The notes below the pieces were generated by a model. The model was given only the letters and a program-made list of their open reading frames with translations. It was not told the DNA's origin and did not search any database. Shown here in pieces: positions 7,267-56,712 of a stretch of DNA of 56,712 nt. Origin of the DNA: a virus; the IMG/VR virus record IMGVR_UViG_3300038701_002640, positions 1 to 56,712 of that record, one strand, 5' to 3'. The position numbers and the translations under genes are program-made. Numbering within the stretch: position 1 is the stretch's first letter; each line of letters starts with the position of its first letter.

Positions 7267-7271
7267 CCAAC

Positions 7272-8031: not shown

Positions 8032-8259
8032 ATGAGCAGCAAAAAACCCAAATCACTATCAGCCGTCCAACCGGACATTTCTCAGTTTCTAAATCAAAAA
8101 TATCTCGAACTCTGCCAGCAACTCGGCGACGCTCAAATCAAACTCGATCAGCTCAATGAACATGTTGCCACCATCAAACAACAAATCAAAAATCTAAACG
8201 AAGCCCACCCATTAATGTTTCAATATCAAAATATATCTGACAAGCAAAAGGATTCCTAA
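8032..8259 (+). CDS. Hypothetical coiled-coil protein
   Basis: ORF track. Confidence 0.5.
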   Translation: MSSKKPKSLSAVQPDISQFLNQKYLELCQQLGDAQIKLDQLNEHVATIKQQIKNLNEAHPLMFQYQNISDKQKDS

Positions 8260-8702: not shown

Positions 8703-8706
8703 CCCC

Positions 8707-9565: not shown

Positions 9566-9836
9566 AGAACAGAACACTAGTTCTGAAGAACAAACTCAAG
9601 AACAACTAGAATTAACTATGGAAGAGCACCTTAGAAAATTTAAAAAATCTTTCAAACACCACAGTAAATCAACTTTGATTTCACTATTATGGAATCAAGG
9701 CATCAGATATAACGAACTTCAAGTAGCTGCCAGACAACTTCTCGAAGAAAATAAAACCCTAAAAGGAGAAACAAATGCTGGAATCTCAGAAGAAGAAGAA
9801 ATCAAAAACGATGAAGCTATTGAAACTAATAGCTAG
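9552..9836 (+). CDS. Hypothetical acidic protein
   Basis: ORF track. It overlaps both neighbours slightly. Confidence 0.45.
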   Translation: MSKTEEQNTSSEEQTQEQLELTMEEHLRKFKKSFKHHSKSTLISLLWNQGIRYNELQVAARQLLEENKTLKGETNAGISEEEEIKNDEAIETNS

Positions 9837-10521
9837 CAGCTTAATACTTGCCGTAAGTCTATTGGTAATTTCGAACCTATCTTTAGACATCCACGAGCAA
9901 CTACTATACAGTGTAAAAGGAAACTCTGTAGTAAAACTAACAAAATCATTCGCAGGTAGATCAGGCGGAACAGGCTCTCAGATAGTAGCTCCATCAGGTA
10001 AAGAATTTATCCTAACTAATGCTCACGTATGCGGAGACAGAAAAGAACTAATAGCTCATACTCAACTAACTAAACCTAAAAAGGTAAAAGTAATAAGAGT
10101 ATACAAAAAACATGACCTATGTTTAGTAGAAGCAATCAAAGGACTTCCAGCTCTTAGAATTGCAAACTCTATCATACCTAGAGAAAAAGTATACGTCATA
10201 GGACACCCAGCTCTTAGACCACTAACACTGGAATCAGGACGGTTCGTATCCGATAAGACCATTTCCATGAGAGTACCATGTAGTACAAAAGTGAAACCCA
10301 CTATACTAATTAAATTTAGAAACTACAGATTAGCCATGTGTGTAAAAAGTTTTAAATCACAATTAGTAAACGCAATAATCTACCCTGGTAACTCAGGATC
10401 TCCACTACTAGATAAATTCGGAAACGTAGTAGGAGTAATATTCGCAGGACGTTTAGACCAACCAAACGCAGCTTACACTGTACCATTAAAGTCAGTTAAA
10501 GCATTTTTAAAAAACCACTAA
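9775..10521 (+). CDS. Membrane-anchored/secreted trypsin-like serine protease (S1 family)
   Basis: AAGGAG RBS before the ATG at 9775. Basic n-region plus hydrophobic LLKLIASSLILAVSLLVISN. Catalytic triad contexts are LTNAHVCG (His), HDLCLVE (Asp) and GNSGSPLLD (Ser). Confidence 0.75.
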   Translation: MLESQKKKKSKTMKLLKLIASSLILAVSLLVISNLSLDIHEQLLYSVKGNSVVKLTKSFAGRSGGTGSQIVAPSGKEFILTNAHVCGDRKELIAHTQLTKPKKVKVIRVYKKHDLCLVEAIKGLPALRIANSIIPREKVYVIGHPALRPLTLESGRFVSDKTISMRVPCSTKVKPTILIKFRNYRLAMCVKSFKSQLVNAIIYPGNSGSPLLDKFGNVVGVIFAGRLDQPNAAYTVPLKSVKAFLKNH

Positions 10522-10530
10522 GGAGAAAAT

Positions 10531-10815
10531 ATGAAAATCGTACACGTCAAAACACATGAAGCAGTAAAATTTGGAAACTCTCAAGAATTCAACTTCTACA
10601 ACTTCGCAACTATCCCAGGAAGAAAAACAGTAGACATCGTTCTTAACAAAGAACTAAACTGCATCGAACTAAAAACAGAACTAGACCATGTTCTAATCCC
10701 CATGGTTAACATTGCCTTCATGAAACTTGACAATAAAGCTCATCAAGACAAACAAGAAGCTAAGAAAAAACCAAAACCAAGTTCAAAGCCATCTGATATC
10801 AAAAGACCGAGGTAA
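10531..10815 (+). CDS. Hypothetical protein immediately upstream of terL
   Basis: ORF track with a basic C-terminal tail. A small-terminase role is possible from position only. Confidence 0.5.
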   Translation: MKIVHVKTHEAVKFGNSQEFNFYNFATIPGRKTVDIVLNKELNCIELKTELDHVLIPMVNIAFMKLDNKAHQDKQEAKKKPKPSSKPSDIKRPR

Positions 10816-10825: not shown

Positions 10826-13345
10826 ATGTCAGATATCAGAAAAGAAGCCATATTAGCTGAACTTAACCAACGACTAAAAGCAGCAGAAGAGGAATCTAAA
10901 AAACCTAAGTTCCAATTTGAAGATCACTGTTTCGAAAAACAATCAGAATTCTTCAGAGGACAAGGTCCAAGATTCCGAGCCGCATGTTGCTCACGTCGTG
11001 CTGGAAAATGTAGAGAAGAAAACACTCTAGTAAAAACTCCTACAGGCTCCGTAAAGATTCAAGACCTAAAACCAGGCGATGACGTATACGGCTACGACAA
11101 CGACGGTAAAGTTCGAATATGCAAAGTCACACAACTTCACGATCAAGGAATAAAAGAAGTAGTAGACCTAATATGGAACAATCAAATCATGGCTACTTCA
11201 ACATTAGACCATCGTTGGTTAGCTCACAATACCTATCAAGAAAAAAGAGAAGTAAAAAGACTAAAAGATTTCAACTCAAGAGACCGAATAGCAGAAGAAT
11301 ACGTACCCATTCCAGGCGGATCTAAAACTGTAAAAGAAGCCTACGCCCTAGGAGCCCTGCTAGGAGATGGTTGCAGTAGAGAATCAGGAATAGTAATCTC
11401 ATCAGCTACCAAATCAATAGTAGAAAAAGTAGCCGACAGTCTTCAAGCTACCTCTATAGCAAAAAGAACTGGAAACTTCTCATGGAGCATAAAGGGCTTA
11501 TCCAAATCAGACGAATCTCTCTCATTATACAATCTATGGTGTAGAGACAAATACGCTCACGAAAAAACCTTTAATCTAGAAGAAGTACGAACCTGGAACA
11601 GAGAATCTCAACTAGAATTCATAGCAGGCTTAATAGACACAGATGGCAGCGTAGCAAAAACCAAAGACGGTAGACTACACATAAGACTATCAATGCAAGC
11701 AAAAACAGTAATAGAAAACTGTCAAATGCTAATATTAGACTTATTCCAATACAAACCAATTATAAAAATAGACAATAGAGACAAATACAAAAACGGACCA
11801 GTATACGAATTAAGTATATCAAATAACAAATTCTCAAAAAGAATACTAAAAGAACTACCACTATTATCAGAACAAAAAAAGTGGAACCCTTCATACGAAC
11901 AATTAAATGAAAGAAATACAAATCCTAAATACACAGGATTCAAACTATCCGAACCAAGAAAAGCACAATGCTATGACATTACGATAAACAACGATTCTCA
12001 TTTATTCTTAGACGCCAACGGTCTCATAGGTCATAACACAGTAGGTATCGCAGCTGACGCAATAGAAACCTGCAGAAACGAACCAGGAGTAACCTGCCTA
12101 TACATTACAATTACAAAACAGGCAGCTAGAAACATAATCTGGGCAGACGTACTGCAAATCATAGAAGCTTACAACTTAGAATGTAAAATAGACAACACCC
12201 GACTAACAGTAACTTTTCCCAATAGATCTAAATTTGTAATCGAAGGCGCAAAAGACAGAACCGAGATAGAAAAATACCGTGGATGGAAACTACGTAAATG
12301 TTACATCGACGAAGCCCAATCCTTTAGATCTTACATCGAAGACCTTGTTAACGATGTTGTAACCCCGGCACTTCGTGACCTTAAAGGAGAACTATACATA
12401 ACCGGAACCCCTGGTCCTGTAAAAGCTGGATACTTCTACAAAGTTACTCACTCAGACTTCTGGCACAACGTAGGCTGGACTGCATTTGATAACCCACACA
12501 TGCACCTACCTCCTGAAAAAGACCTAAACCAAACTCTTACAGAAGAACGTACCATGAAAGGCATCGCAGAAAACGATCCTTCATACCAACGAGAAACCTA
12601 CGGTGTTTGGATAGAAGACCTAGACTCCCTAGTCTTCAAATTTAACAGAGATAAAAACAAATACACCACACTACCAATCTTCAACGAACATGGAGAAAAA
12701 TACACCTATGATTACATCTTCGGAATAGACATAGGATACAACGACTCCGATGCTATAGCAGTATTAGCATACAATTACGAAGAGAAAAAAGTATTTTTAG
12801 TAGACGAATATGTAAAAGCAAAGCAGACCATTAGCTCCCTGGTATCAGAGATCAAAAGGTTGCAAAATCACTATAACCCTGTTAAAATGGTTATGGATGC
12901 AGGAGCCCTGGGAAAAAAAATACAAGAAGAAATCCTCTCAAGACACGGCATAAACCTCATTGCCGCTGAAAAAACAAGAAAAGTAGAATTCATAGAACTC
13001 CTAAACGACGACCTCCGAACAGAAAAATTTAAAGCTTTCCAGGGCTCTGTTTTCGAAGACGACTGCATGCTAGTACAATGGGATAAAGAAAGTAAAATAA
13101 GAAATCCCGAAAGACCCAAAATTTCCGATACATATCACTCGGATATTTGCGACGCCGTTTTATACGCTTGGAGGGAATGCAGGCATTTCCTCTCAGAAGC
13201 CGTAAAGAAACCCTTCGGCAAAAACAGCAATGAATACATGGACGAGTTAGAAGCCAAAGAAGCCGAAAGAATGGAAGAAAAGAAAACCAACCCATTTTAC
13301 GACTTCTATGACGACGACGATGACGATTATTCCGATATCTTCTAA
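10826..13345 (+). CDS. terL: Terminase large subunit, interrupted by an intein (mature extein about 496 aa)
   Basis: The Walker A motif SRRAGK|T is split by the intein. Walker B is CYIDEAQS and the RNaseH-like nuclease motif is GIDIGYNDSDAIAV. The gene lies directly upstream of the portal gene. Confidence 0.9.
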   Translation: MSDIRKEAILAELNQRLKAAEEESKKPKFQFEDHCFEKQSEFFRGQGPRFRAACCSRRAGKCREENTLVKTPTGSVKIQDLKPGDDVYGYDNDGKVRICKVTQLHDQGIKEVVDLIWNNQIMATSTLDHRWLAHNTYQEKREVKRLKDFNSRDRIAEEYVPIPGGSKTVKEAYALGALLGDGCSRESGIVISSATKSIVEKVADSLQATSIAKRTGNFSWSIKGLSKSDESLSLYNLWCRDKYAHEKTFNLEEVRTWNRESQLEFIAGLIDTDGSVAKTKDGRLHIRLSMQAKTVIENCQMLILDLFQYKPIIKIDNRDKYKNGPVYELSISNNKFSKRILKELPLLSEQKKWNPSYEQLNERNTNPKYTGFKLSEPRKAQCYDITINNDSHLFLDANGLIGHNTVGIAADAIETCRNEPGVTCLYITITKQAARNIIWADVLQIIEAYNLECKIDNTRLTVTFPNRSKFVIEGAKDRTEIEKYRGWKLRKCYIDEAQSFRSYIEDLVNDVVTPALRDLKGELYITGTPGPVKAGYFYKVTHSDFWHNVGWTAFDNPHMHLPPEKDLNQTLTEERTMKGIAENDPSYQRETYGVWIEDLDSLVFKFNRDKNKYTTLPIFNEHGEKYTYDYIFGIDIGYNDSDAIAVLAYNYEEKKVFLVDEYVKAKQTISSLVSEIKRLQNHYNPVKMVMDAGALGKKIQEEILSRHGINLIAAEKTRKVEFIELLNDDLRTEKFKAFQGSVFEDDCMLVQWDKESKIRNPERPKISDTYHSDICDAVLYAWRECRHFLSEAVKKPFGKNSNEYMDELEAKEAERMEEKKTNPFYDFYDDDDDDYSDIF
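11009..12037 (+). mobile_element. Intein (343 aa) with a LAGLIDADG homing endonuclease, inserted in the TerL P-loop
   Basis: It starts at Cys62 (tgt, 11009). Block B is TLDHRW. The two LAGLIDADG motifs are LGALLGDGC and IAGLIDTDGS. It ends ...LIGHN (aac, 12035..12037), followed by +1 Thr, which restores GK-T. Confidence 0.85.
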
Positions 13346-42202: not shown

Positions 42203-44503
42203 CTAATGAGCTTCGTAAAAGTCTAATCCAATCTCAGCAGGAGCCTTCAAAGGAATAGATATCTTATATGTATTTTCCATTAAATATTGAACTGTCTTCT
42301 GCCATTTCTTAGCTTCAGACTTAGGTACTCTAACCACAATCTGATCATGAATCTGGGCACATACATAGCCTTTAGACCCTTGTCTCTTTAACTCTCTAGC
42401 TATAGCAATACAAGCTCTATTAGTAATAGAAGCTGCCAAGCTCTGTATTTGAAAGTTCTTAGCATTATTCAAAAAGTTCTTTAACTGCTTCCTCTTCCAC
42501 TTCAAACTATCGTATTTCTTAGGATTGTCATTCCACTTTTCCCATAATTTCAAAGGATCAATAACAGTTCCATCCGCATTAAATAAACAATTTCGATCTA
42601 CTTCATTGTACCAGAAAGCTTTAGCCATTTTAAATCGTCTAGTTCTGCCAGCTTCTGACTTAACTTGCCCCTTATGAATACACTGCTCATTACTTCTATC
42701 CATCCATCTAGCCAAGTTAGGATAAGCAGCTAGATACTTCGCAATAAGTTTCTCAGCTTCTCTCTGCCTAACATCAATAGTCTTAGACAATTTAAAAGCC
42801 TCCATACCATACGGTATACCTAATGCATAAGCTTTTGCCTGCTGTCGTTTTAACTTATCTACCTTACCTAGATAATCTTCAGACTTTTTATCAGCACTGA
42901 CTCCATCTAAGTTCTCAGTATCAATAGCAATAGTAGAGTAAAAATCATTCCCTTTTAAGAAAATATCTTTAAGACCTTTGTCCCCACTAACATGAGCAAA
43001 CACATGCGGCTCCAGAGACTCATAATCGGCATCAACAAACACATGATCCTCACCCGATATAAAAAACTTCCTCATTCTATTTGTATGCTTAATCACAACA
43101 TCAGAAGCTTGTCCCGGCTCCAACGGTCTGGGAATCTGCTGTATATCAGATCCATACCTTCCACTAATAGTCCTATGCTGGAAAAACCTAGGGTAAAAAA
43201 TCCCCTCTTCTTGATCGTCTAAGAATCTGTCAATATAAGAACCTTTAAGTTTAATAAGCTTATTGTAATCCAACAGCAAAGGAACCCAATCGTACTTGTC
43301 TTTAACAGAGTGTAAAAATAAGTGATCAACTTGAGGGTTACCCTTAGCAGTCTTAGAAATAGGAGTCTCCTTCAAATGGTCAAAAAACAACTTCTTCAAA
43401 TGATGCTTAGAAGACAAGTTAAACATATGCTCATCTCCAAACTCTTCTTTAAACAAACACATTTGAACGTCTTTAATGACATCATCAGGCAGAGTAGACT
43501 CCTCACCCAATAAATAATCCTTATAAAAAGAAGGCTCCAATCGCTCAAGGTTAGAATTAGTCAAACTGAAACGACCAGATTTGGTCTTAGGTAAATCCAG
43601 TTGAGCATACTCAGAGAGCACCTGAGCGAAGGAGCCAGATCTTTTAGGAGGGAATTTCAGCCATAAAAACCAATGCTCAAAATCCTCAAGCATAGGTTTA
43701 ATAGCGGACTGAATCTCACTTTCTAAGGTATTTAGATCTTTAATTATATCTTCTTTTGCTATCTTCAAAGAAGGAACATCTACAGGTATACCTCTTTGTT
43801 CCATCGGTATAGTAACGTTCTTCAATAAAGGCATTACTTCATCTTTATAGAAAAAGCTTTCGAGTCTTTCTTCTCGAAGCTGTTTATTATAATAGTTAAA
43901 TATTCTTAATGTCAAATCAACATCGGCACAAGCATAGACACCTATCTTGTACATGTCAGCTTTATATAGTTCATATTTTCCTTTAGTAACGGAGCCGCCA
44001 TTAGCTTTAATAGACTCTACCATGTCTATCTGCTCTTGATTAGCTTCCTTTTCTACATCCAATCCAATATGTTTTTGTATCTTCTTAGCAATAGGCTTAA
44101 GTCCAAAAGGCATCTCCTCATCAACCGTATGCTTGAGCAATATAGTATCACAATACAATGCAGGAATCAAATCAACTTTAAAATTAGAATAGGTTATTCG
44201 ACAATCATAACTAGCATTATGCATGATCAGTTTCTTAGTCAATAACACTTTTAACATTTCCATAGCTCTTTTTTCACCCAAACTATGAAAAGGCTTTAAC
44301 TCCATATTTTCCCAGAAATATAAAGGAAGATAATACCCCACACCTTCAGCTCCACTAAAAGAAAAACCAATTACAGTATCCTTTCTTACGTTTAAACCAG
44401 TTGTCTCTGTATCGTAAGCCACAAACTCAGAAGCATTTAAATGCTCCATAGCAGCCCTAAAATCAGTAGAGTCTATTATAACTTTATAGTTCTTATCATT
44501 CAT
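42203..44503 (-). CDS. Family A DNA polymerase with a 3'-5' exonuclease domain
   Basis: Exo I AYDTETTGL, pol motif A DADYESLEPHVFAH, motif B RQQAKAYALGIPYG, motif C CAQIHDQIVV. Confidence 0.9.
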   Translation of the reverse strand: MNDKNYKVIIDSTDFRAAMEHLNASEFVAYDTETTGLNVRKDTVIGFSFSGAEGVGYYLPLYFWENMELKPFHSLGEKRAMEMLKVLLTKKLIMHNASYDCRITYSNFKVDLIPALYCDTILLKHTVDEEMPFGLKPIAKKIQKHIGLDVEKEANQEQIDMVESIKANGGSVTKGKYELYKADMYKIGVYACADVDLTLRIFNYYNKQLREERLESFFYKDEVMPLLKNVTIPMEQRGIPVDVPSLKIAKEDIIKDLNTLESEIQSAIKPMLEDFEHWFLWLKFPPKRSGSFAQVLSEYAQLDLPKTKSGRFSLTNSNLERLEPSFYKDYLLGEESTLPDDVIKDVQMCLFKEEFGDEHMFNLSSKHHLKKLFFDHLKETPISKTAKGNPQVDHLFLHSVKDKYDWVPLLLDYNKLIKLKGSYIDRFLDDQEEGIFYPRFFQHRTISGRYGSDIQQIPRPLEPGQASDVVIKHTNRMRKFFISGEDHVFVDADYESLEPHVFAHVSGDKGLKDIFLKGNDFYSTIAIDTENLDGVSADKKSEDYLGKVDKLKRQQAKAYALGIPYGMEAFKLSKTIDVRQREAEKLIAKYLAAYPNLARWMDRSNEQCIHKGQVKSEAGRTRRFKMAKAFWYNEVDRNCLFNADGTVIDPLKLWEKWNDNPKKYDSLKWKRKQLKNFLNNAKNFQIQSLAASITNRACIAIARELKRQGSKGYVCAQIHDQIVVRVPKSEAKKWQKTVQYLMENTYKISIPLKAPAEIGLDFYEAH

Positions 44504-46645: not shown

Positions 46646-46829
46646 CGTTATTCTCCTTATAGGCATCAAAAGCAACACCTTCTAAATCTAAAAAACATTC
46701 TTCACATACCCAATCAATCCCATGATCCCTGAAGAAATCTTTCCTAGAATGAAGAGTTTTTTTAACATCTTTTTGACAATTATCACATTTATGATCCATA
46801 GCTATTCTCCTAATATGATCAATTTCCAC
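46638..46829 (-). CDS. Small zinc-ribbon protein
   Basis: CDNCQKD ... WVCEECF. Confidence 0.5.
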   Translation of the reverse strand: MEIDHIRRIAMDHKCDNCQKDVKKTLHSRKDFFRDHGIDWVCEECFLDLEGVAFDAYKENNDE

Positions 46830-48163
46830 ACTTGTCTGTCGCCATCTAAAAGCTTTTTTACTTTAAAAGATTCAGGATACATAGCAGACAAAGTTTGAAA
46901 AGCGCCTCTTCCTGGTCTACACCTAGATCCAAACTCAGACTCTACTTCAAAACTAGCATCTTTAACTGTAACTTCCTTACCTTTATTAGAGTAGCAATAT
47001 TCTTCAATAAACCATTCTTGCCATACGTTAAGACTAGCAGACCTAATAACTTCAGTTCTATTAGATCTGAAAACACTCATCATTTTATTCTTATCGACTT
47101 CTCTAGTAAACAGAAAAAAAGCAAGCTGCTCAATATTCTCAGGCTCTAATAAACTACCTATTTTATTTTCGTCAAAAACACTAACTAGTTTTTTATCAGT
47201 AAGTTCGACTATACTAAATCTTCTATCATCCGAAGGTATTCTAATTGAATCTAAGTTATTAGAAGAGAAGTACAAACTACTGTAGTTTCTAGAAAGCTTT
47301 GCATCTACGCCTTTAGCTTCCACTTCAATATAATCATTTATAAGATCTTTAAGTTTGTTCTCCTGGTCAACCGAAGTTACCTTAAGCTCATCCAAATACA
47401 CAAGCCTCTTATCTTTTAACTGACCATTAAAGTCTTTAGTTATAAGCTTCTTATCCGTCTTAGAAAAGTTTGACTTACCTACTAGATTTTGCATTATAGA
47501 ACCAAGAACACCTTTACCGATACCTTGATTTCCAATAGTAGTCAGAATACAGTAATTTCTATTTTGCAGCATGTTAGATAACCAATCAATCAAGTACGTA
47601 TAAGACTCCTTATGATCATTAACTAAGTGCATAAAGAAAGTATGATACAATTTAGGTATCTTTTTAACAACCGGAATAGCTTTCTTACCTCCAGAGTAGA
47701 AAAAATCCTCAGCCCAAAACGGACACTTATACGTATTGAATTTCCACTGACCGTCAAACTTATGTAAGATTTTAGGAATATATGGATCATATTCAAATAA
47801 ACAAGTATACTTCTTATGAGACCACTTTAACTTCGGATCTATAATACCAGTTAATCTAGAAGGATTAATAGTAACAATATCTCTCTTCCTCAAATTAAAC
47901 ATATAGTATTTTTCTTCTTCAGCATCTTTATCTAAGATTATTTTAGAATCCATAAAAAACTGAATGAGGTCATAGTCAGGGTAATCATCACACACTCGCT
48001 CAACAGACTCATCTATTAAAATAGAATCATCTAAATTTTTAGCCAGAGCTCTTTTGATATCATCCTTAGAATAACCAAAAGGAATCAAGCTTCTTATCTT
48101 ATTTTCTATATCAAACGGCTTCACGCTTGTATCTCCCTTTTTGTTTGTAAGCATGCTGAACAC
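46802..48163 (-). CDS. SF3 (D5/VirE-like) replicative helicase
   Basis: Walker A TIGNQGIGKGVLGS and Walker B RLVYLDEL. It lies directly downstream of the AEP primase gene. Confidence 0.75.
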   Translation of the reverse strand: MFSMLTNKKGDTSVKPFDIENKIRSLIPFGYSKDDIKRALAKNLDDSILIDESVERVCDDYPDYDLIQFFMDSKIILDKDAEEEKYYMFNLRKRDIVTINPSRLTGIIDPKLKWSHKKYTCLFEYDPYIPKILHKFDGQWKFNTYKCPFWAEDFFYSGGKKAIPVVKKIPKLYHTFFMHLVNDHKESYTYLIDWLSNMLQNRNYCILTTIGNQGIGKGVLGSIMQNLVGKSNFSKTDKKLITKDFNGQLKDKRLVYLDELKVTSVDQENKLKDLINDYIEVEAKGVDAKLSRNYSSLYFSSNNLDSIRIPSDDRRFSIVELTDKKLVSVFDENKIGSLLEPENIEQLAFFLFTREVDKNKMMSVFRSNRTEVIRSASLNVWQEWFIEEYCYSNKGKEVTVKDASFEVESEFGSRCRPGRGAFQTLSAMYPESFKVKKLLDGDRQVWKLIILGE

Positions 48164-49058
48164 CTACGTACAACTTATGCCTAGGGTATCCTCTTTTAAT
48201 CAAACTAGAAAAAGTATACTGTTCCAAAAATTCGATAAATAATTCAAAAGAAACTCCAGTACTATCAATAGCCCATAAAGAAAGTTTATACAATTCGTTA
48301 TACATTCCAGCACTGGCAGCCCACGTTACTATAGTCAACTTTCTTAACAACTCAGCAGGGCAGGCAGCCTTAAAATCTTCTACAGAAAAGAACTCTTGCT
48401 CCGGAATAGAAGATTCCTCAAAAACAGTCTCAGCTATTTCAGGACATTCCCTTAACAAATCTTCAAACTTATAACGCTCCATTCGAGTACCGAGATATTT
48501 AACTTCTTGGACCTTACCGTTATCTCTAGTGAACCCAGGAAATCTAGATAATCTACTAGGATTCTTACAACTCTGATCTATATAGCCATTAGCAGGATAC
48601 TCTAATCTACCAGACTCTTTTATCTCTCTATTTAACAAAGCAGCCAGTCGTTTCCACACATGCTTATACTTCTGTATTCCGTCTAAAGTATGACATTCTC
48701 CAGCCACACTAGGTTCCACAGACAATATTGCATGCATTGATTTTCCACCCGAATAAACAATACTAGTAAATGGGATCTTAGAGTTTTTAAAAAACTCAAG
48801 CTGCAAATCTAATGGAACGTCATCCATTTCAAACATAAAGTTCCTAAACGCAATTACATTTAAATCAGCTCTTCTAGGCTTAGACTCTTCATACCTGTCT
48901 TTTAAAAAGAACCCATGATCCTTATGCAAGTCCAACGGATTAATAGTAAAAAAAGGACTAGGCTTAGGAACATCAGTTATTTTATTAGAATACTGATCAC
49001 CACAACATACACCTTCGCCTTCATTAAACAGTAATGAAAAAAATTCTTCCTGACTCAT
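48111..49058 (-). CDS. Archaeo-eukaryotic-type (AEP) primase
   Basis: Metal-binding motif FMFEMDD (DxD-like) and motif III VYSGGKSMHAIL (SGxxxH). Confidence 0.6.
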   Translation of the reverse strand: MSQEEFFSLLFNEGEGVCCGDQYSNKITDVPKPSPFFTINPLDLHKDHGFFLKDRYEESKPRRADLNVIAFRNFMFEMDDVPLDLQLEFFKNSKIPFTSIVYSGGKSMHAILSVEPSVAGECHTLDGIQKYKHVWKRLAALLNREIKESGRLEYPANGYIDQSCKNPSRLSRFPGFTRDNGKVQEVKYLGTRMERYKFEDLLRECPEIAETVFEESSIPEQEFFSVEDFKAACPAELLRKLTIVTWAASAGMYNELYKLSLWAIDSTGVSFELFIEFLEQYTFSSLIKRGYPRHKLYVGVQHAYKQKGRYKREAV

Positions 49059-49366
49059 CTATTGTCTCCTTTTCCAGAGATCTTACCTCGGTTTTTTCTA
49101 TCTTCAAGTTTACTTAAATTAGCTTCAGCGACTTCATCTAATTCCATCCCATAACAACGAGATAGTTGACTTAAATACCACAGTACATCTCCTAGTTCTT
49201 TTTGAAGATCATGCAGGCTCAAAGTTCCATCTCTGATACTTTTTTTAAGTTTTTCCATAACCTCACCAGTCTCACCGGATAAACCTAAAGCAAAATACAC
49301 AGAACTATTTTCTACAGATGGCAGAACAAATTCACTAGCTTTCTTTTGATACTCATTTAAATCCAT
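49055..49366 (-). CDS. mazG: MazG-like nucleotide pyrophosphohydrolase
   Basis: GLSGETGEVMEKLKK ... ELGDVLWYLSQL ... NLSKLEDR, the typical all-alpha MazG motifs. Confidence 0.8.
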   Translation of the reverse strand: MDLNEYQKKASEFVLPSVENSSVYFALGLSGETGEVMEKLKKSIRDGTLSLHDLQKELGDVLWYLSQLSRCYGMELDEVAEANLSKLEDRKNRGKISGKGDNR

Positions 49367-49983
49367 TCTAATGCCTTTGCTATTATTGGAAACTCTTTAC
49401 TAAATATTTCTTTACATTGTTTTGCAATTTCAATATGCTCTTTCTGCGTACCATTAGAAGTTCTAAGATTTATATAATGCATCCAGCTACGAAGATTACC
49501 ATTCATATAAAGCTTGCTAGTAGTACTCATAGGAAGTAAAAACCTAGCCTGTTCCTTTGCAATACCTCTATTCAAGGCTTCCTGATACATTTTATCGCTA
49601 TTGTTTTGCACCATCTGTTGAGCTAGTTCAAACCAATTCTTATCTTCATCTGACATATCATCAATAGAGTTTTGCCTATTCTTAGAATCTTGTCTTCTAG
49701 CATTGTAAGTTTCAAAACCTTGAGTCTTAGCATATCTTTGAGAAAATTCTTGAAAACAAAAACTTCTATGTCTCAATATCTGAGCACTAATAGCTCTAGA
49801 GGTTTCGATCTCTAAGCACATATTAGCCATTTCAAAAATACTCCAATGACCATGCTTAATACAATAACTTAACAACTTTGTATTCTTAGATCCTTGATGG
49901 CTACTAGATACTCTAGCACAATGCATAATTATATCTTCGGCATCCGGTGTAGCCGAAATTAGGTTTACTTTACTCATCTTCAA
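49357..49983 (-). CDS. thyX: Flavin-dependent thymidylate synthase ThyX
   Basis: ThyX signature RHRSFCFQEFSQRY (RHRxxSxxxxSxRY). Confidence 0.9.
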   Translation of the reverse strand: MKMSKVNLISATPDAEDIIMHCARVSSSHQGSKNTKLLSYCIKHGHWSIFEMANMCLEIETSRAISAQILRHRSFCFQEFSQRYAKTQGFETYNARRQDSKNRQNSIDDMSDEDKNWFELAQQMVQNNSDKMYQEALNRGIAKEQARFLLPMSTTSKLYMNGNLRSWMHYINLRTSNGTQKEHIEIAKQCKEIFSKEFPIIAKALEWI

Positions 49984-50194
49984 CTCCTTCTCTAAGCCAA
50001 GGTCTATTAAGAAATTCTAAAGATTGCAAGTCAAGTCCCCAATCTCTCTGTAGTATGTATATAATATTGTCCGATATGTTGTCAACAGTTCCATAGGAGA
50101 TACTATGGTCATGAAAACTTAATCCATGCTGAACAATTCCAGAAATTTCTTTTTTTAAGTCATCTACTTTATCGGACATGCTCCCCCCTCGCAC
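49970..50194 (-). CDS. Hypothetical small protein
   Basis: ORF track. It overlaps the RNR 3' end, and the likely start is the internal MSDKVDD. Confidence 0.45.
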   Translation of the reverse strand: MRGGSMSDKVDDLKKEISGIVQHGLSFHDHSISYGTVDNISDNIIYILQRDWGLDLQSLEFLNRPWLREGVEDE

Positions 50195-52065
50195 CCTACT
50201 TGATCTGAGCTAATATCGGTTTCCCTAATCTCAGCAGACTTAATAGGTTTAACGTTTTTAACCATTTTATCATACTCTTCTTTAGTAATCTCTTCCAACG
50301 GAGCCTGATCAAAACCATGCTCACTATGTAGTAAAAAAGATACCGTCTTAACATTCGTATTAAAGTTTTGCTTTAACCATCTTTTAATTTTAGGTAACTC
50401 ATCCTTACTATAATATATAGTACAAGATACACTATTATCCGACCAATTAGTCTGAAGTTCTTTTATAATCTCCAACTGATCTATAGCAGTACAGTCTTCT
50501 GCCACAACAGTATGCTTAGGAAATTTACACGGAAACTCAACAACAACAGTCCCATGATCCTCAGACCCATCAAACTTACGAGCAAACTCTACGTTATACC
50601 CATGATCTTTACAAACTTGGACCAAAGGGATATTGCTAGCCATACGAACCCTGCGGATGTGATAATGACTGTAACCAGGATGGCAACCAGGAGTAACTCC
50701 AGATAATAAGCTAAGGGTTCCCGAAGGTTTAACCGTCGTAAGCTTGATTGAATTAGGATATCCATGCTTCTTACTATATTTTTCATCATACCCCCTCAGA
50801 TATTCATAACATTTCTTTAACCAAGATTTTTGCTTTTTAGTAGCCATACAATATCCAGTAACACCAATACCCATACGCATGTTCTTATGAACGATAGCCT
50901 CTGTTGTTTCTTGATGACATTTGATAGCTAAACTATGCTTATTAATTCTATACAAGTACGTAGACACTTCCTTCAATTCTTCTTCAGATTCTATATTAGG
51001 AAGATGAATCTCCGCTAAACAGCAGGTTTCATAATCAGCCAGCGATTGCTCAGCACAAGGATTATAACCCTTAACATCCGGATCAGGATAATTAGTATCT
51101 CCAGCTCTACCCACTTCCTGAGAAAGTTTTAAATTTATAAGCCCATAAGGCTCTCCGTTACCCATGTAACCTTGCCAAAACTGATCAGGCAGATCCTCAA
51201 TGTTGTTACACACAACACTGTTATTAGACATAGCTCTCCAGTTAGGTATATTCCCTAAGTCCCACCTCTTGGCATTAAGAAACTGTAGATCGTCCATGTC
51301 TCCAATTGCTATTTGAGCAGACCGTCTAACATTACCAGCCACAACTATTGAACCAATGATGTTCATTATATCCAAACAATCTACAGAACGGAGCTTCTTC
51401 CCTGATCTATTATTGAGCACTCCATTGATTTGTTCGATTCCTGTACATAATTCTTCAGGTCCGCTAGCAAGACCTCCAAAACCTTTAATAGTGGTCCCTT
51501 TCCCCCTGACGCAGATTGTAGAATAAGTGAAACCTCTTCCTGTGTGGAAACTAGCTTCGAGCGTTCTTCGCAATAACTCAACCCACCCTTCTCTGGAATC
51601 CGGGACAATAAAGTCTGCATCCTTTGTATCGAGTCTAGTAATTTTAACTTTTCGTCTAACTTTTGGGATCTCATAAACGTACTCCTTCTGTATGTTATAA
51701 CCGACACCACTACCTAACATTAAAGCATCCATAGCCCACGTAAAAGGCTCCACAGGTTTATCCACCACTACAAACGCGCAATTTTGTAAAGAAAATAATC
51801 CAAGCTTATCCACTGTCTTAGTGCCTAATTGCCAAAAAAACCTACCTGCTACCGTTCCCTTTAAGGACAGTAATATCTCTCGTAGTCTCTTTTCTTCTGA
51901 AGGCTTAAAACCGACTTTAAGCTGCTTAGAACATCCTTCTACAATACGATCAACTGTTTGAGGATATTCCTCCGTTAAAGAATTAGGATCTGAATCCTTA
52001 AGCCTTCTAGAATAGGTTCGCTTGTAAACTATATATCCTAATGGTCCCCATGGGGTATCTGTCAT
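50164..52065 (-). CDS. nrdJ: Class II (adenosylcobalamin-dependent) ribonucleotide reductase, monomeric type
   Basis: N-terminal WGPLGYIVYKRTYSRR, active-site GYNPCAEQSL and C-terminal redox pair CEGGACPIK. Confidence 0.85.
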   Translation of the reverse strand: MTDTPWGPLGYIVYKRTYSRRLKDSDPNSLTEEYPQTVDRIVEGCSKQLKVGFKPSEEKRLREILLSLKGTVAGRFFWQLGTKTVDKLGLFSLQNCAFVVVDKPVEPFTWAMDALMLGSGVGYNIQKEYVYEIPKVRRKVKITRLDTKDADFIVPDSREGWVELLRRTLEASFHTGRGFTYSTICVRGKGTTIKGFGGLASGPEELCTGIEQINGVLNNRSGKKLRSVDCLDIMNIIGSIVVAGNVRRSAQIAIGDMDDLQFLNAKRWDLGNIPNWRAMSNNSVVCNNIEDLPDQFWQGYMGNGEPYGLINLKLSQEVGRAGDTNYPDPDVKGYNPCAEQSLADYETCCLAEIHLPNIESEEELKEVSTYLYRINKHSLAIKCHQETTEAIVHKNMRMGIGVTGYCMATKKQKSWLKKCYEYLRGYDEKYSKKHGYPNSIKLTTVKPSGTLSLLSGVTPGCHPGYSHYHIRRVRMASNIPLVQVCKDHGYNVEFARKFDGSEDHGTVVVEFPCKFPKHTVVAEDCTAIDQLEIIKELQTNWSDNSVSCTIYYSKDELPKIKRWLKQNFNTNVKTVSFLLHSEHGFDQAPLEEITKEEYDKMVKNVKPIKSAEIRETDISSDQVGCEGGACPIK

Positions 52066-52084
52066 GTAATCTCCTTGTATATTA

Positions 52085-52112
52085 ATAGTATCATAAAACT
52101 TTTAAAAATCAA
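52085..52112 (-). promoter_or_regulatory. Possible sigma70-like promoter for nrdJ (TTGATT-16-TACTAT)
   Basis: rc of 52107..52112 is TTGATT and rc of 52085..52090 is TACTAT, with a 16-nt spacer. It lies just upstream of the RBS AAGGAG and the ATG at 52065. Confidence 0.3.
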
Positions 52113-52116
52113 TTTA

Positions 52117-52361
52117 GTACAAGTACACTGTACTTTTTCACAGGTACAGTTCATGGTACAGCGATAAATTTTTGAAATCATTAAGAAAGTACAGGGTACA
52201 GCAAAACAGTACTACACTACGCCACGCCAGCGCCCCTATTATATACTTTTTTACTTCTAAATATATATAAACTATCTGTACACTGTACATACTCTTTTAT
52301 TTCCTATACTTAATAGACTTCTTAGACTGTACTACTTCCTGTACCAATACGGTAATAGTAC
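52117..52361. repeat. Cluster of 13 GTAC(A) motifs (iteron/operator-like)
   Basis: GTAC at 52117, 52123, 52130, 52144, 52156, 52189, 52196, 52209, 52278, 52285, 52329, 52341 and 52358. GTACAG occurs 4 times in the left half and CTGTAC 4 times in the right half. The 11-mer GTACACTGTAC occurs twice. Confidence 0.8.
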
Positions 52362-52392
52362 AACTACTTCTTTTATGCTCATAGCAAAAGCA

Positions 52393-52656
52393 TCATTCTT
52401 TAGAATGTTTTTTCTCATACCCTTCATCTAATACATTTCCTTTAAGATCCAATACTCTACCGTGTCTTTTATCAGAATTCAAAGAAGAAAACATATTTTT
52501 AAGAAAAGTATAGCTTTTTTTGTCACAACTTCTTGCTTTAGATAAAATACTAAATTGAGTTCCCGAAAAACCTTTAGTTTTAGCTTTCATTATTCCTCCT
52601 ACGGATATATAAAATACTAGAATCAGAATTATTACTGACCCTAATGGAAAAAACAT
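52393..52656 (-). CDS. Hypothetical protein with an N-terminal TM segment
   Basis: ORF track. Confidence 0.45.
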   Translation of the reverse strand: MFFPLGSVIILILVFYISVGGIMKAKTKGFSGTQFSILSKARSCDKKSYTFLKNMFSSLNSDKRHGRVLDLKGNVLDEGYEKKHSKE

Positions 52657-54754: not shown

Positions 54755-55360
54755 TTATACTATCTCGTACTGGGAGAAAGTTTTTATCATTGTTAGGTAA
54801 AGCTCCATTTCATCCTCATTAAAACCATTAGTCTCGCCTATATACTGATAATTATCTAACCAGTGCTGAATAGAATGATCTATACAACCTATCTTAACCC
54901 TATATTGGTCCTCATATCTATAATAGACTAAGGTATATTTTTCACCAGTAAAACTAAGTATGCCTTTTGTATGCTGCGTGTTCGATACAGACAAATTAGC
55001 TCTATACAAATTAGCTTTATACAGATTAGCGAAGGACAAATTAGCTTTATACAAATCAGCATTAGACAAGTCAGCTCTAAACAAATTAGCATTAGGCAAA
55101 CTAGATTCAGACAAATTAGCTTTATACAAATTAGCTTTATACAAATTAGCAAAAGGCAAATTAGCTTTATGCAAATTAACTTTATACAAATTAGCTTCAG
55201 ACAAATTAACTCCAGACAAATTAGCGTAAGACAAATTAGCTCTAAACAAATCAGCTCTAAACAAATCAGCTCTAGACAAATCAGCTCTATTACCTTTACT
55301 ATTATCCTCTAACCATAACTGATGCTGCTCTAATATTTCATTTAATTCATTCTGGTTCAT
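54755..55360 (-). CDS. Pentapeptide-repeat protein PRP-A (201 aa)
   Basis: ATG at 55360 (MNQNELNEILEQHQLWLEDNSKGNRADLS...). About 20 A(D/N)LxX units are followed by a C-terminal domain [39 protein letters not shown]... that is shared with PRP-B. Confidence 0.85.
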   Translation of the reverse strand: MNQNELNEILEQHQLWLEDNSKGNRADLSRADLFRADLFRANLSYANLSGVNLSEANLYKVNLHKANLPFANLYKANLYKANLSESSLPNANLFRADLSNADLYKANLSFANLYKANLYRANLSVSNTQHTKGILSFTGEKYTLVYYRYEDQYRVKIGCIDHSIQHWLDNYQYIGETNGFNEDEMELYLTMIKTFSQYEIV

Positions 55361-55383
55361 ACCTACTCCCTTACCTATTTCTA

Positions 55384-56349
55384 TTAAAGCACAAAATCCT
55401 TTCCACAGCAAGGACACGTCACAGCCCTAGCTTCCTTTAACTTCTTCCTCTTACCTGCCTTAGTGACCTTATTCTTGTCTGCTTCCTTAGCCTGTTCTTG
55501 GCTAATTGCCGAAGCCGTTACGGGAACTTCCATTTCCTCATTCTTCCTGTAGTGTCGTACGTTTACCGTACAAAGATGATTACTATAAAAATTTAGGGCA
55601 TTAGTAAAAGCATCCGGCTGCCTCATCTCAGACAAATCAGTAAACAAAGGTTCTTTATGCTGCTCCTTATCGAACTCAACCAGTCTCTTAAGAGCTAGAT
55701 CAACTGGTACTTTGTCAGCAATCAGCTCACCACATAAAGAGCTAAGGGCATGGTTCCTTCCCGAAGTCATAGAGCCTTTACCATCACTTTCCAAATCGCC
55801 AAATTTCGCCTTTAGCTTCGACTCTAGATTAGACACTAGAAAAGGTGGTAAAAGTGGTAAACTACCTAGATCTACATCTAATAGGGTTTTATCCGTGGTC
55901 CAGACATAAGAACAACCATTAGGATGTTTACTTGGGGGTAAGGTTGTCTTCTTATTAGAAGATAAAACCTCTAGAACAACTGAACCATTGAGCTTAACTA
56001 TCTGGGTATGTTCACCTTTGTAGCGAAAAAATCGCGTAAAACCCGTACTACCTCGCTTCTCTACTGGGCTCTCGGGCAGTATGCCTTTTATTATTTCTAG
56101 GATTTGTGGGTCGTCTGTATCAACATCTAGGGCTATGATTCCAGACTGCTCGCCTAAACATAGAGCTATGTTATTTTCTGGGTAAGCTTCAGACCAGAGA
56201 GCCACCTCGTGCCCTTTAGGTAGTTTGTAGCAATAATCAGCATAACCTTTTATCATAGCCTTTTTGCTGGCGTATCTGTCAGGTATTAAGCTCAATCCCC
56301 TGTCTATATACTGTTTACCTAATTGACTGTATATGTTTTTAGTTTGCAT
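55384..56349 (-). CDS. Prim-Pol-type (bifunctional primase/polymerase N-terminal domain) AEP protein
   Basis: GLSLIP..., NIALCLGEQSGIIALDVDTDD (DxD) and TLPPSKHPNGCSYVW, the characteristic Prim-Pol motifs. Basic C-terminus with CPCCG. Confidence 0.7.
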   Translation of the reverse strand: MQTKNIYSQLGKQYIDRGLSLIPDRYASKKAMIKGYADYCYKLPKGHEVALWSEAYPENNIALCLGEQSGIIALDVDTDDPQILEIIKGILPESPVEKRGSTGFTRFFRYKGEHTQIVKLNGSVVLEVLSSNKKTTLPPSKHPNGCSYVWTTDKTLLDVDLGSLPLLPPFLVSNLESKLKAKFGDLESDGKGSMTSGRNHALSSLCGELIADKVPVDLALKRLVEFDKEQHKEPLFTDLSEMRQPDAFTNALNFYSNHLCTVNVRHYRKNEEMEVPVTASAISQEQAKEADKNKVTKAGKRKKLKEARAVTCPCCGKDFVL

Positions 56350-56361: not shown

Positions 56362-56712
56362 CTACGTTATCTCATATTTAGACATAAACTTTATTTGAGA
56401 TATATATAATTCTATTCCATCCTCATTAAAACCATTCTCCTGACCTATCTTACGATAATTATCTAACCAATATTGAATTGGATGATCCATACAACCTATT
56501 TTAACCCTATACTGGTCTTCATATCTATAATAGATTAGAGTATAGTTTTCACCAGTAAAACTAAGTATGCCTTTTGTATGTCCTAGGGCAGCTTTATACA
56601 AATTAGCTCCAGCCAAATCAGATCCAGACAAGTCAGCTTCAGACAAATCAGCTCCAGACAAATTAGCTTCAGACAAATTAGCTTCAGACAAATTAGCTTC
56701 AGACAAATTAGC
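56362..56712 (-). CDS. Pentapeptide-repeat protein PRP-B, C-terminal part (same gene as 1..772; 56586..56712 duplicates 1..127)
   Basis: ORF track 56362..56706. It reads ...[75 protein letters not shown]... and has no genuine start inside the window end. Confidence 0.85.
56586..56712. repeat. Terminal overlap, copy 2 (identical to 1..127)
   Basis: 127/127 identity with 1..127. Confidence 0.9.

What the first reader, a model, noticed from the sequence alone, without database searches (positions are those of the whole stretch)
52066..52392. Largest non-coding gap carries 13 GTAC(A) motifs in mirror-like orientation around a GC-rich core and an AT-rich stretch
Within 245 bp (52117..52361) GTAC occurs 13 times. 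My rough composition-based expectation for an AT-rich sequence is about one.

The arrangement is ordered:
- GTACAG is repeated 4 times on the left (52144, 52156, 52189, 52196).
- Its complement CTGTAC is repeated 4 times on the right (52276, 52283, 52327, 52339).
- The 11-mer GTACACTGTAC occurs twice (52123..52133 and 52278..52288).
- TGTACA palindromes are present.

Between the two halves lie a GC-rich island (ctacgccacgccagcgcccc, about 52217..52237) and an AT-rich run (tattatatacttttttacttctaaatatatataaac). The region sits upstream of nrdJ and a plausible promoter (52085..52112).

Iterons plus an AT-rich unwinding element is the classical origin-of-replication layout. Alternatively this is a multi-operator regulatory hub for the nucleotide-metabolism and replication operon. 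GTAC is also a type II restriction/modification target sequence (e.g. RsaI), so its genome-wide distribution is worth checking.
Basis: partly seen in the sequence, partly recalled or inferred. Interest (0 to 1): 0.65.

Follow-up and report, generated by a model that had tools for sequence, protein, structure and literature searches.

The report
Iteron-type phage replication origin
A 250-bp non-coding stretch of an uncultured 56-kb phage carries two opposed arrays of the 6-bp word GTACAG around an AT-rich and G-rich core. The same layout, with different words, sits next to the primase-helicase genes of related phages, so it is most likely the phage's origin of DNA replication.

Summary
There are 13 GTAC in 245 bp, against 0.6 expected. 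The next densest 245-bp window in the genome has 4. GTAC is neither enriched nor avoided genome-wide.

The unit is the hexamer GTACAG, present in 9 exact copies. Read in the direction of the flanking genes (minus strand), the order is:
- four forward copies;
- a 35-bp AT-rich block;
- a 21-bp G-rich block;
- four inverted copies;
- one extra forward copy.

The window is a circular assembly of a roughly 56.6-kb phage with no integrase found. The gap lies inside its replication module.

Relatives were found through the SF3/D5-like helicase (40-57% identical). In ten of them the same element lies 1-5 kb upstream of the primase-helicase gene pair. The spacing is nearly the same in the closest relatives, but the word differs between lineages: GTACAG, TTACAG, CTACAG, TGCTACC, CTACCA, AGCCGC, GCCACA, CACCG.

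The helicase model resembles the NrS-1 and SaPI Rep helicases and ends in a winged-helix-like domain. SaPI origins have this design: 6-12 short iterons, half on each side of an AT-rich region, in opposite orientation.

Best reading: an iteron-type origin loaded by the phage's own helicase (confidence about 0.7). Nothing was tested experimentally. A regulated-promoter role is not excluded.

The parts
52339..52345 (-). Left-arm outer iteron 1 (GGTACAG on the gene-sense, minus strand)
52327..52332 (-). Left-arm outer iteron 2 (GTACAG), 12 bp from iteron 1
   Evidence: The same 12-bp outer-pair spacing is seen in the right arms of L199, L200 and L201.
52276..52288 (-). Left-arm inner iteron pair (GTACAGTGTACAG, two copies 7 bp apart) abutting the AT-rich block
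   Evidence: The inner pair is spaced 9 bp in L199, L200, L201, L214 and L295.
52238..52272 (.). AT-rich block (92% A+T in its best 25 bp), the proposed DNA-unwinding element. On the sense strand it ends in TATAAT.
52217..52237 (-). G-rich block on the sense strand (GGGGCGCTGGCGTGGCGTAG; G:C = 12:4 in its best 20 nt). It follows the AT block in W and in 7 of the 12 relatives tabulated. Its role is unknown.
52189..52201 (+). Right-arm inner iteron pair (GTACAG twice on the + strand, which reads CTGTAC on the sense strand), 7 bp apart
52144..52161 (+). Right-arm outer iteron pair (GGTACAG...GGTACAG on the + strand), 12 bp apart and 33 bp from the inner pair
52117..52133 (-). Extra distal cluster: one exact copy in left-arm orientation (CTGTAC on +, 52128-52133) plus two degenerate GTAC words (52117, 52123)
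   Evidence: Comparable extra outer copies in the opposite orientation occur in L203, L214, L219, L295 and L296.
52358..52361 (.). Degenerate GTAC word at the upstream edge. A further one lies at 52209-52212.
46802..48163 (-). SF3/D5-like helicase (DUF5906), the proposed initiator that recognises the iterons and loads itself
46814..47026 (-). C-terminal domain of the helicase (residues about 380-450) with winged-helix topology H-b-H-H-b-b, the proposed iteron reader
   Evidence: Every top Foldseek hit is a winged-helix DNA binder, but E-values are only 0.05-0.5.
48111..49058 (-). Primase-like protein (315 aa), always directly upstream of the helicase gene in relatives
50164..52065 (-). Class II ribonucleotide reductase, first gene downstream of the element. 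It is part of an RNR/ThyX/MazG cassette present between the element and the primase only in some relatives.
42203..44503 (-). Family A DNA polymerase, which places the element inside the replication module
55384..56349 (-). Prim-Pol protein at the upstream end of the same gene block

Best explanation
The gap is the phage's origin of replication, of the iteron type used by self-loading SF3/D5-like helicases.

Proposed mechanism (inferred):
1. The helicase encoded 4 kb downstream (46802-48163) binds the GTACAG words through its C-terminal winged-helix domain.
2. The two arms point in opposite directions, so two helicase assemblies are positioned on either side of the core.
3. The 35-bp AT-rich block between them melts.
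4. The adjacent primase-like protein and the family A polymerase then start synthesis.

The G-rich block next to the AT block is a conserved but unexplained part of the core. It might limit melting to one side, or mark a priming or transcription start.

What is shown: the repeat array, its uniqueness in the genome, its conservation and linkage to the helicase-primase genes, the change of repeat word between lineages, and the helicase fold.

What is inferred: that the helicase is the binder, that the AT block melts, and that replication starts here.
For: 1. The array is far beyond chance and unique in the 56.7-kb genome. A detector for opposed hexamer arrays finds exactly one hit in the window.

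2. It lies within a co-oriented replication block: Prim-Pol, RNR, ThyX, MazG, primase-like protein, SF3 helicase, PD-(D/E)XK nuclease and PolA.

3. Relatives were fetched through the helicase.
- Ten non-redundant loci with helicases 47-57% identical carry the same architecture: L199, L200, L201, L203, L214, L215, L294, L295, L296, L297. It reads forward array, AT block, usually G-rich block, inverted array, and lies 1.1-5.1 kb upstream of the helicase.
- L219 also carries it, as do more distant relatives L207, L208, L209 and L212.
- In six loci it sits directly before the primase-helicase pair.
- In L207 it sits directly after a fused primase-helicase gene.

4. The geometry is shared by L199 (TTACAG), L200 and L201 (GTACAG) and L214 and L295 (CTACAG): inner pair 9 bp apart, then 31-32 bp to the next group. 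The 12-bp outer pair is seen in L199, L200, L201 and the window. A conserved layout with a changing word is what a protein-DNA assembly site that co-evolves with its binder looks like.

5. Flanking genes differ between relatives. The element is therefore not tied to RNR or to any one downstream gene.

6. Helicase structure.
- The model has pLDDT 91.
- It matches the NrS-1 helicase region (E 1e-22), SaPI5 PriRep (E 1e-10), PriRep1 with dsDNA, and poxvirus D5/E5.
- Its last 70 residues have winged-helix topology, and all top fold hits are winged-helix DNA binders.

7. PMC9371898 describes SaPI origins. They have 6-12 penta- or hexanucleotide iterons, half on each side of an AT-rich region. At least two on each side point in opposite directions. 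They are read by the C-terminal winged-helix domain of a self-loading Rep helicase. The present element fits that description.
Against: - There is no experimental evidence of binding or initiation.
- GC skew shows no change at the site. It is negative on both sides and follows gene orientation.
- Public data are assembler contigs only. Their depth varies 3-fold locally, so marker frequency cannot be read.
- The link between winged-helix sequence and iteron word is only suggestive. Same-iteron pairs are more alike than expected (residual +13 against sd 6, n = 7, non-independent). However, L199 and L219/L220 share TTACAG with unlike domains, and L297 has a window-like domain with a different word.
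- The winged-helix fold matches have weak E-values (0.05-0.5).
- Several relatives with 39-45% identical helicases show no such array within 8 kb. Two closer ones, L268 and L287, show none in the short upstream sequence available.
- The element sits at a boundary between gene clusters, where a regulated promoter would also be expected.
Confidence: 0.7

Rival explanations
1. A regulated promoter region at the boundary between the early genes and the replication genes. A phage regulator would bind the two arrays of GTACAG operators and repress or activate a promoter in the AT-rich core, perhaps by looping. This could also coexist with origin function.
For: - The element lies between two co-oriented gene clusters.
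- The AT block ends in a TATAAT-like hexamer just before the G-rich block, in the window and in most relatives.
- A small basic protein (65 aa, pI 9.9) is conserved one to three genes upstream of the element in several relatives.
- Known systems such as parC of plasmid R1 have two repeat clusters flanking a promoter (own knowledge).
Against: - No GTACAG pair occurs at any other intergenic site in the genome. A regulator would thus have a single target with 9-13 sites.
- No consistent -35/-10 pair is found in the core. Sense and antisense strands score alike, 6-9 of 12.
- The downstream gene differs between relatives, whereas linkage to primase-helicase holds.
- No recognisable transcription-factor domain was found in the neighbouring small proteins.
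Confidence: 0.17
2. A packaging (pac) recognition site. The small terminase subunit would bind clusters of hexamers on both sides of a cleavage region, as at the P1 pac site.
For: - The hexamer-cluster layout resembles P1 pac (own knowledge).
- In run X1 the depth of adjoining assembler contigs steps from 2793 to 5228 across 52161/52193.
Against: - The element is embedded in the replication module, about 15 kb (across the assembly junction) from the large terminase gene at 10826-13345. In relatives it follows the primase-helicase genes.
- Contig depth varies from 3400 to 10700 elsewhere without any pattern, and run X2 is flat.
- No read ends were available.
Confidence: 0.04
3. A plasmid-prophage partition centromere or an integrase attachment site with arm-type binding sites around a core.
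For: Both kinds of site consist of short repeats on two sides of a core (own knowledge).
Against: - No integrase, ParA/ParM or ParB/ParR domain was found among the 46 ORFs scanned.
- The G-rich core is not a tRNA or tmRNA fragment by Rfam.
- The core sequence is not conserved between relatives, whereas the geometry is.
Confidence: 0.03
4. Chance, or a by-product of GTAC-specific restriction/modification pressure.
Against: - Poisson P is about 2e-13.
- Genome-wide GTAC is at expectation.
- Relatives have the same layout with words that lack GTAC.
Confidence: 0.01

Closest known systems
SaPI (Staphylococcus aureus pathogenicity island) ori with Pri and the Rep self-loading helicase
   Same: - Short (5-6 bp) iterons, 6-12 copies, split into two sets around an AT-rich region, with the sets pointing in opposite directions (PMC9371898).
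- A separate primase gene sits next to the helicase gene.
- The helicase has the same fold (Foldseek E 1e-10 to 7OLA/7OM0, and 7PDS) and a C-terminal winged-helix-like domain.
   Different: - The SaPI ori lies immediately downstream of rep. Here the element lies 1-5 kb upstream of the primase-helicase pair (downstream only in the distant L207).
- The host element is a 56-kb phage with its own polymerase and no integrase found, not a satellite.
- There is a conserved G-rich block beside the AT block.
- The helicase is much closer to the NrS-1 type (E 1e-22) than to SaPI Rep.
- Binding has not been tested.
Phage P4 ori/crr with the alpha primase-helicase
   Same: An SF3/D5-like primase-helicase with a C-terminal winged-helix domain binds multiple copies of a short repeat (an octamer) at the origin (own knowledge).
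   Different: - P4 has two separate sites (ori and crr).
- Its primase and helicase are fused.
- Its repeat word and layout are different.
- No sequence relationship was tested here.
Phage NrS-1 primase-polymerase/helicase
   Same: It is the closest solved structure to the helicase here (6K9C/6K9E: profile E 5e-28, Foldseek E 1e-22).
   Different: NrS-1 fuses Prim-Pol to the helicase. I did not look for a description of its origin, so no comparison of origins is possible.
Phage lambda ori and iteron plasmids (RK2, R6K, P1 oriR)
   Same: Iterons plus an AT-rich unwinding region. Some plasmid origins also have a GC-rich stretch beside the AT-rich region (own knowledge; see also the reviews listed).
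   Different: - Those iterons are 17-22 bp direct repeats on one side of the AT region.
- They are bound by a dedicated initiator that recruits the host DnaB.
- Here the words are 6-7 bp, lie in two opposed arms, and the helicase itself is the likely binder.
Origins of SV40/polyomavirus and papillomavirus, and archaeal oriC with inverted ORB elements
   Same: Short recognition words or boxes in inverted orientation flank the melting region, so that two helicase assemblies are loaded facing opposite ways. SF3 helicases carry their own origin-binding domain (own knowledge).
   Different: Different proteins, words and hosts. This is an analogy of design only.

Membership tests
SaPI-type iteron origin (self-loading Rep helicase) | Penta- or hexanucleotide iterons, 6-12 copies | tested here: met
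   Nine exact GTACAG copies plus four degenerate GTAC words. There are 10-12 copies in L199, L200, L201, L294 and L295.
SaPI-type iteron origin (self-loading Rep helicase) | Iterons split into two sets around an AT-rich region | tested here: met
   Four copies on each side of 52238-52272, which is 92% A+T in its best 25 bp.
SaPI-type iteron origin (self-loading Rep helicase) | At least two iterons on each side pointing in opposite directions | tested here: met
   All four left copies are in one orientation and all four right copies in the other.
SaPI-type iteron origin (self-loading Rep helicase) | ori immediately downstream of the rep reading frame | tested here: not met
   The element is 4.0 kb upstream of the helicase start in the window and 1.1-5.1 kb upstream in close relatives. 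It is downstream only in the distant L207.
SaPI-type iteron origin (self-loading Rep helicase) | Helicase of the Rep/D5-like fold with a C-terminal winged-helix domain | tested here: inconclusive
   The fold match to SaPI5 PriRep is clear (E 1e-10) and the match to NrS-1 clearer (E 1e-22). The C-terminal domain has winged-helix topology and only winged-helix hits, but at E 0.05-0.5.
SaPI-type iteron origin (self-loading Rep helicase) | Helicase binds its own iterons specifically; the ori supports replication | not testable with these tools
   This needs EMSA or footprinting and a replication assay. The in-silico comparison of domain and iteron was inconclusive.
Lambda/plasmid-type iteron origin | [quoted passage not shown] | tested here: not met
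   The words are 6-7 bp in two inverted arms, in a non-coding gap.
Operator array of a transcription regulator | Sites overlap a recognisable promoter, and the regulator usually has further targets in the genome | tested here: inconclusive
   A TATAAT-like hexamer is present, but no consistent -35/-10 pair. There are no other GTACAG pairs in the genome. The host's promoter type is unknown.
pac site of the P1 type | Located in or beside the terminase genes; virion DNA ends map there | tested here: not met
   The large terminase gene is at 10826-13345, while the element lies in the replication module. DNA ends could not be tested because only assembler contigs were available.
attP with arm-type integrase sites | An integrase gene in the element; a core identical to a host site | tested here: not met
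   No integrase domain was found in the 46 ORFs scanned. There was no tRNA-like match.

The most novel reading that the evidence does not exclude
The conserved order is AT-rich block ending in a TATAAT-like hexamer, then a G-rich block, always in the direction of transcription. This could mean the origin is transcription-primed. A short G-rich RNA started in the core would form a stable R-loop that the iteron-loaded helicase and primase use, combining a SaPI-like self-loading helicase origin with a ColE1/T4 oriF-like RNA primer.

Separately, the series GTACAG / TTACAG / CTACAG with nearly identical geometry would be a natural specificity-swap set for working out how this winged-helix domain reads DNA.
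Probability: 0.12. Interest if true: 0.65.

Novelty: new member of a known kind. Interest (0 to 1): 0.45.

Why it matters
This phage lineage is widespread in metagenomes (marine, freshwater, sediment, algal) but has no close cultured relative in the collection searched. The best helicase match among 50,697 deposited phage records is about 26% identical over part of the protein. Neither this search nor the literature searches turned up a described origin for this lineage.

- A predicted origin with a clear candidate initiator gives a direct handle for replication studies and for building shuttle replicons.
- It helps annotate the largest non-coding gap in these genomes.
- The lineage-specific repeat words on a fixed scaffold offer a ready-made comparative set for studying how self-loading SF3 helicases recognise their origins.
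- The design principle known from staphylococcal satellites would extend to phages with their own polymerase and no integrase found.

Tried and rejected
- **Relatives anchored on the ribonucleotide reductase** (80 IMG/VR loci, 64-72% identical). They share neither synteny nor any GTAC cluster. RNR is a mobile cassette and a poor anchor.
- **Exact pattern scan** for GGTACAG-N5-GGTACAG in viral contigs. It returned only scattered, unrelated matches.
- **Single-protein helicase scan of IMG/VR.** It found nothing. The alignment-based scans worked.
- **Nucleotide search of deposited phages.** The only hit was a weak RNR match to a Maribacter phage.
- **Rfam** on the gap and its flanks. No match.
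- **Single-strand folding.** Not better than shuffles (z = -1.7), so a structured RNA or cruciform is not indicated.
- **GC skew.** Monotonic and follows gene orientation, so uninformative.
- **Marker frequency and termini from public runs.** Only assembler contigs exist. Depth is noisy (2.8k-10.7k) and no read ends are available.
- **Sigma-70-type promoter search** in the cores of 12 elements. No strand preference and no strong site.
- **Winged-helix domain against iteron word.** Suggestive but broken by counter-examples.
- **Primase-like protein as the specificity factor.** It is uniformly conserved with no variable domain.
- **Neighbouring small proteins.** No known domains.
- **The 50-aa ORF inside the gap.** Rejected as spurious because gene calls at the matching gap of relatives list no ORF there.

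Full report
**1. The observation**

The gap between the stop of the upstream ORF (52393) and the start of the ribonucleotide reductase gene (52065) is real. Both genes are on the minus strand. The gap holds 13 GTAC in 245 bp.

- The window has 143 GTAC in 56,712 bp. Dinucleotide-preserving shuffles give 138 +/- 12, so the tetramer is neither enriched nor avoided overall.
- The local expectation is 0.62. Poisson P(>=13) is about 2e-13. The next densest 245-bp window holds 4.
- The real unit is the hexamer GTACAG. Nine of its 25 occurrences (both strands) lie here: four on the + strand (52144, 52156, 52189, 52196) and five on the - strand (52128, 52276, 52283, 52327, 52339).

**2. Anatomy, read in the direction of the flanking genes (minus strand)**

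| Part | + strand coordinates | Note |
|---|---|---|
| Outer left pair, GGTACAG-N5-GTACAG | 52345-52327 | 12 bp apart |
| Inner left pair, GTACAGTGTACAG | 52288-52276 | 44 bp further on; 7 bp apart |
| AT-rich block | 52272-52238 | 35 bp; ends in TATAAT |
| G-rich block, GGGGCGCTGGCGTGGCGTAG | 52237-52217 | 21 bp |
| Inner right pair, inverted (CTGTACCCTGTAC) | 52201-52189 | 7 bp apart |
| Outer right pair, inverted | 52161-52144 | 33 bp further on; 12 bp apart |
| Extra cluster | 52133-52117 | one copy in left-arm orientation plus degenerate GTAC words |

The symmetry lies in the orientation and spacing of short words. It is not a long hairpin: arm complementarity is only 70-74%, and the single-strand fold is no better than shuffles (z = -1.7). 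Rfam finds nothing.

**3. Genomic context**

- The window ends overlap by 127 bp, so it is a circular assembly of about 56.6 kb.
- It comes from 'algae metagenome' runs.
- The plus-strand block (6.3-40.6 kb) encodes a large terminase with a LAGLIDADG insert, an SU10-like portal and capsid protein, and tail proteins.
- The minus-strand block (40.6-56.7 kb, continuing into 1-6.2 kb) encodes, in order: Prim-Pol, two pentapeptide-repeat proteins, a 2OG-Fe(II) oxygenase, small ORFs, the gap, class II RNR, ThyX, MazG, a primase-like protein, a DUF5906/D5-like SF3 helicase, a PD-(D/E)XK nuclease, a dNTP pyrophosphohydrolase and a family A polymerase.
- No integrase or partition protein was seen in the 46 ORFs scanned.
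- No cultured phage has a close helicase homologue. The polymerase is 45% identical to that of a Flavobacterium phage.

**4. Relatives**

Anchoring on RNR failed. The 80 loci found share neither gene order nor the cluster.

Anchoring on the helicase worked. It has 161 homologues, many on contigs of 53-58 kb. I fetched the surrounding DNA directly and by alignment-based scans of IMG/VR and JGI metagenomes.

A simple detector asked for at least 3 forward and 3 inverted copies of a hexamer, with forward copies left of inverted ones, inside 340 bp.
- It gives one hit in the whole window.
- It gives 5 hits scoring 8 or more in 1.72 Mb of unrelated phage DNA.
- It gives hits beside the helicase genes of many relatives.

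Ten non-redundant loci with helicases 47-57% identical carry the element:

| Locus | Repeat word |
|---|---|
| L200, L201 | GGTACAG |
| L199 | GTTACAG |
| L214, L295 | CTACAG |
| L294 | TGCTACC |
| L296 | CTACCA |
| L297 | (G/C)CACCG |
| L215 | GCCACA |
| L203 (= L216) | AGCCGC |

More distant relatives also carry it:

| Locus | Repeat word |
|---|---|
| L219, L220 | TTACAG |
| L207 | GGAAACC |
| L208, L209 | ATACCC / TATACC |
| L212 | GTAGCCA |

Weak versions occur in L204, L218 and L232.

Two closer relatives, L268 and L287, show none in the 2-4 kb of upstream sequence available. Several relatives at 39-45% identity show none within 8 kb.

**5. What is conserved**

- **Order.** Forward array, AT-rich block, inverted array. 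In W and in 7 of the 12 relatives tabulated, a G-rich block follows the AT block in the direction of transcription. G:C in the best 20 nt is 12:4, 10:3, 12:6, 11:2, 13:3, 8:3 and 6:4, with one exception at 5:8.
- **Geometry.**
  - In L199, L200, L201 and L295 the inner pairs are 9 bp apart and the next group begins 31 bp away.
  - L214 matches in its left arm (9 and 32 bp), but its right arm is degenerate.
  - In L199, L200 and L201 the right-arm outer pair is 12 bp apart.
  - The window differs slightly (7, 44/33 and 12 bp).
- **Position.** Always upstream of the primase-like plus helicase gene pair.
  - It lies directly before the pair (1.1 kb from the helicase start) in six loci.
  - It lies 1.8-5.1 kb away where RNR/ThyX/MazG or small ORFs are inserted.
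  - In L207, a fused primase-helicase, it lies directly downstream of the gene.

What changes is the repeat word, and the flanking genes also differ. The core sequence itself is only about 51% identical between relatives. A fixed scaffold with a lineage-specific word is the signature of a protein assembly site that evolves together with its binder.

**6. The candidate binder**

- A profile of the helicase family matches only the NrS-1 primase-helicase in the PDB (E 5e-28).
- The AlphaFold model (pLDDT 91) matches the NrS-1 C-terminal region (Foldseek E 1e-22). It then matches SaPI5 PriRep (E 1e-10), PriRep1 with dsDNA, poxvirus D5/E5 and ASFV primase-helicase.
- Residues about 380-450 form helix-strand-helix-helix-strand-strand. 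Modelled alone (pLDDT 93), the domain's top Foldseek hits are almost all winged-helix DNA binders (RFX5, Rok, F-93, PadR, Fur, ORC/Cdc6/Cdt1). The E-values are only 0.05-0.5.
- I tested whether this domain tracks the repeat word. After regressing on ATPase-core identity, same-word pairs are 13 points more alike than expected (sd 6). There are only 7 such pairs and they are not independent. L199 against L219/L220 (same word, unlike domains) and L297 (window-like domain, different word) break the pattern. The test is inconclusive.
- The primase-like protein is uniformly conserved and has no variable domain, so it is a poorer candidate.

**7. Comparison with what is known**

PMC9371898 summarises SaPI origins.
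- They have six to twelve penta- or hexanucleotide iterons.
- An AT-rich region lies near the centre, with half the iterons on each side.
- At least two iterons on each side point in opposite directions.
- They are recognised by the winged-helix domain in the C-terminal domain of Rep, a self-loading helicase.

The element here meets each structural criterion, and the helicase shares the fold.

It differs in four ways:
- Position: upstream of pri-hel, not immediately downstream of rep.
- Host element: a 56-kb phage with its own polymerase.
- Core: a conserved G-rich block beside the AT block.
- Helicase subfamily: NrS-1-like.

I therefore file it as working like a SaPI-type origin and as a new member of the wider kind, iteron origins of self-loading SF3 helicases. 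It is not a member of the SaPI family proper.

**8. Rivals**

- **Regulated promoter.** This is the main rival. The site is a cluster boundary and the AT block ends in a -10-like hexamer. Against it:
  - There is no consistent sigma-70-type promoter in the cores.
  - No other GTACAG pair occurs in the genome.
  - The downstream gene varies, while the primase-helicase linkage holds.
  - A promoter and an origin could also coincide.
- **pac site.** The location argues against it, and the depth step in one run lies within the noise.
- **Partition site or attP.** These lack the required genes.
- **Restriction pressure.** Excluded by the genome-wide count and by relatives whose words lack GTAC.

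**9. Verdict**

It is a new member of a known kind, of moderate interest. Two features add value: the origin is predicted for a widespread uncultured phage lineage, and the repeat word varies naturally on a fixed scaffold.

Noticed in passing
window 1-127 and 56586-56712; also 5-698, 54989-55286, 56590-56712: The first and last 127 bases are identical, so the window is a circular assembly of about 56.6 kb. The junction lies inside a pentapeptide-repeat gene made of 15-bp repeats. Two paralogous pentapeptide-repeat proteins (54755-55417 and the gene spanning the junction) share a near-identical non-repeat C-terminal domain.
   Followed up: partly
window 10826-13345 (+): The large terminase ORF is 839 aa and carries a LAGLIDADG homing-endonuclease-like domain (residues about 262-344) upstream of the Terminase_3 match. 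This suggests an intein or an inserted endonuclease.
   Followed up: no
window 4619-4729 and 5052-5168; L201 10425-10605: The window holds hexamer arrays (AGACCN)n, which read (NGGTCT)n on the gene-sense strand. In L201 a similar 180-bp (GGTCTN)n array fills a called intergenic gap in the replication module. One contig of run X1 ends at window 5104 in a CTAGAC repeat. It was not settled whether these arrays are coding (Gly-Leu or Ser-Gly repeats) or non-coding.
   Followed up: no
window 52393-52590 (-), with hairpin at 52616-52645: The ORF just upstream of the element probably starts at the ATG at 52590 (AGGAGG ribosome-binding site). That gives a 65-aa basic protein (pI 9.9) ending in GRVLDLKGNVLDEG. 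It is preceded by a terminator-like hairpin. Homologues lie one to three genes upstream of the element in L199, L200, L201 and L295; L202 also encodes one, though no element was found there. No known domain. It is a possible accessory DNA-binding protein.
   Followed up: partly
L199 7380-7616, L200 7660-7929, L201 1812-2054, L295 1244-1489, L296 4672-4875: A small acidic protein (67-89 aa, motif W.F.W.GE.L.V...DWGW) is encoded immediately upstream of the element in five relatives. It is absent from the window. Function unknown.
   Followed up: partly
window 49055-52065; L201 2453-5479; L296 5260-7317: A nucleotide-metabolism cassette (class II RNR with MazG, and ThyX in the window and L201) sits between the element and the primase gene in the window, L201 and L296. 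It is absent at that place in L199, L200, L294, L295 and L297. In the 80 RNR-anchored viral contigs, ThyX and MazG lie upstream of RNR instead. The cassette behaves as a mobile module.
   Followed up: partly
window 52132-52193, run X1: The assembler's contigs break inside the element. Their word depth steps from 2793 (left) to 5228 (right). Depth elsewhere ranges from 3400 to 10700 with no pattern, and run X2 is flat, so I treat the step as noise. Raw reads would be needed to settle it.
   Followed up: partly
L220 2860-3110; L219 1330-1440: In these relatives a second word (GCTTAAGTG, about eight copies in L220) is interleaved with the TTACAG iterons in the left arm. This suggests a second binding protein or a composite site.
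   Followed up: no
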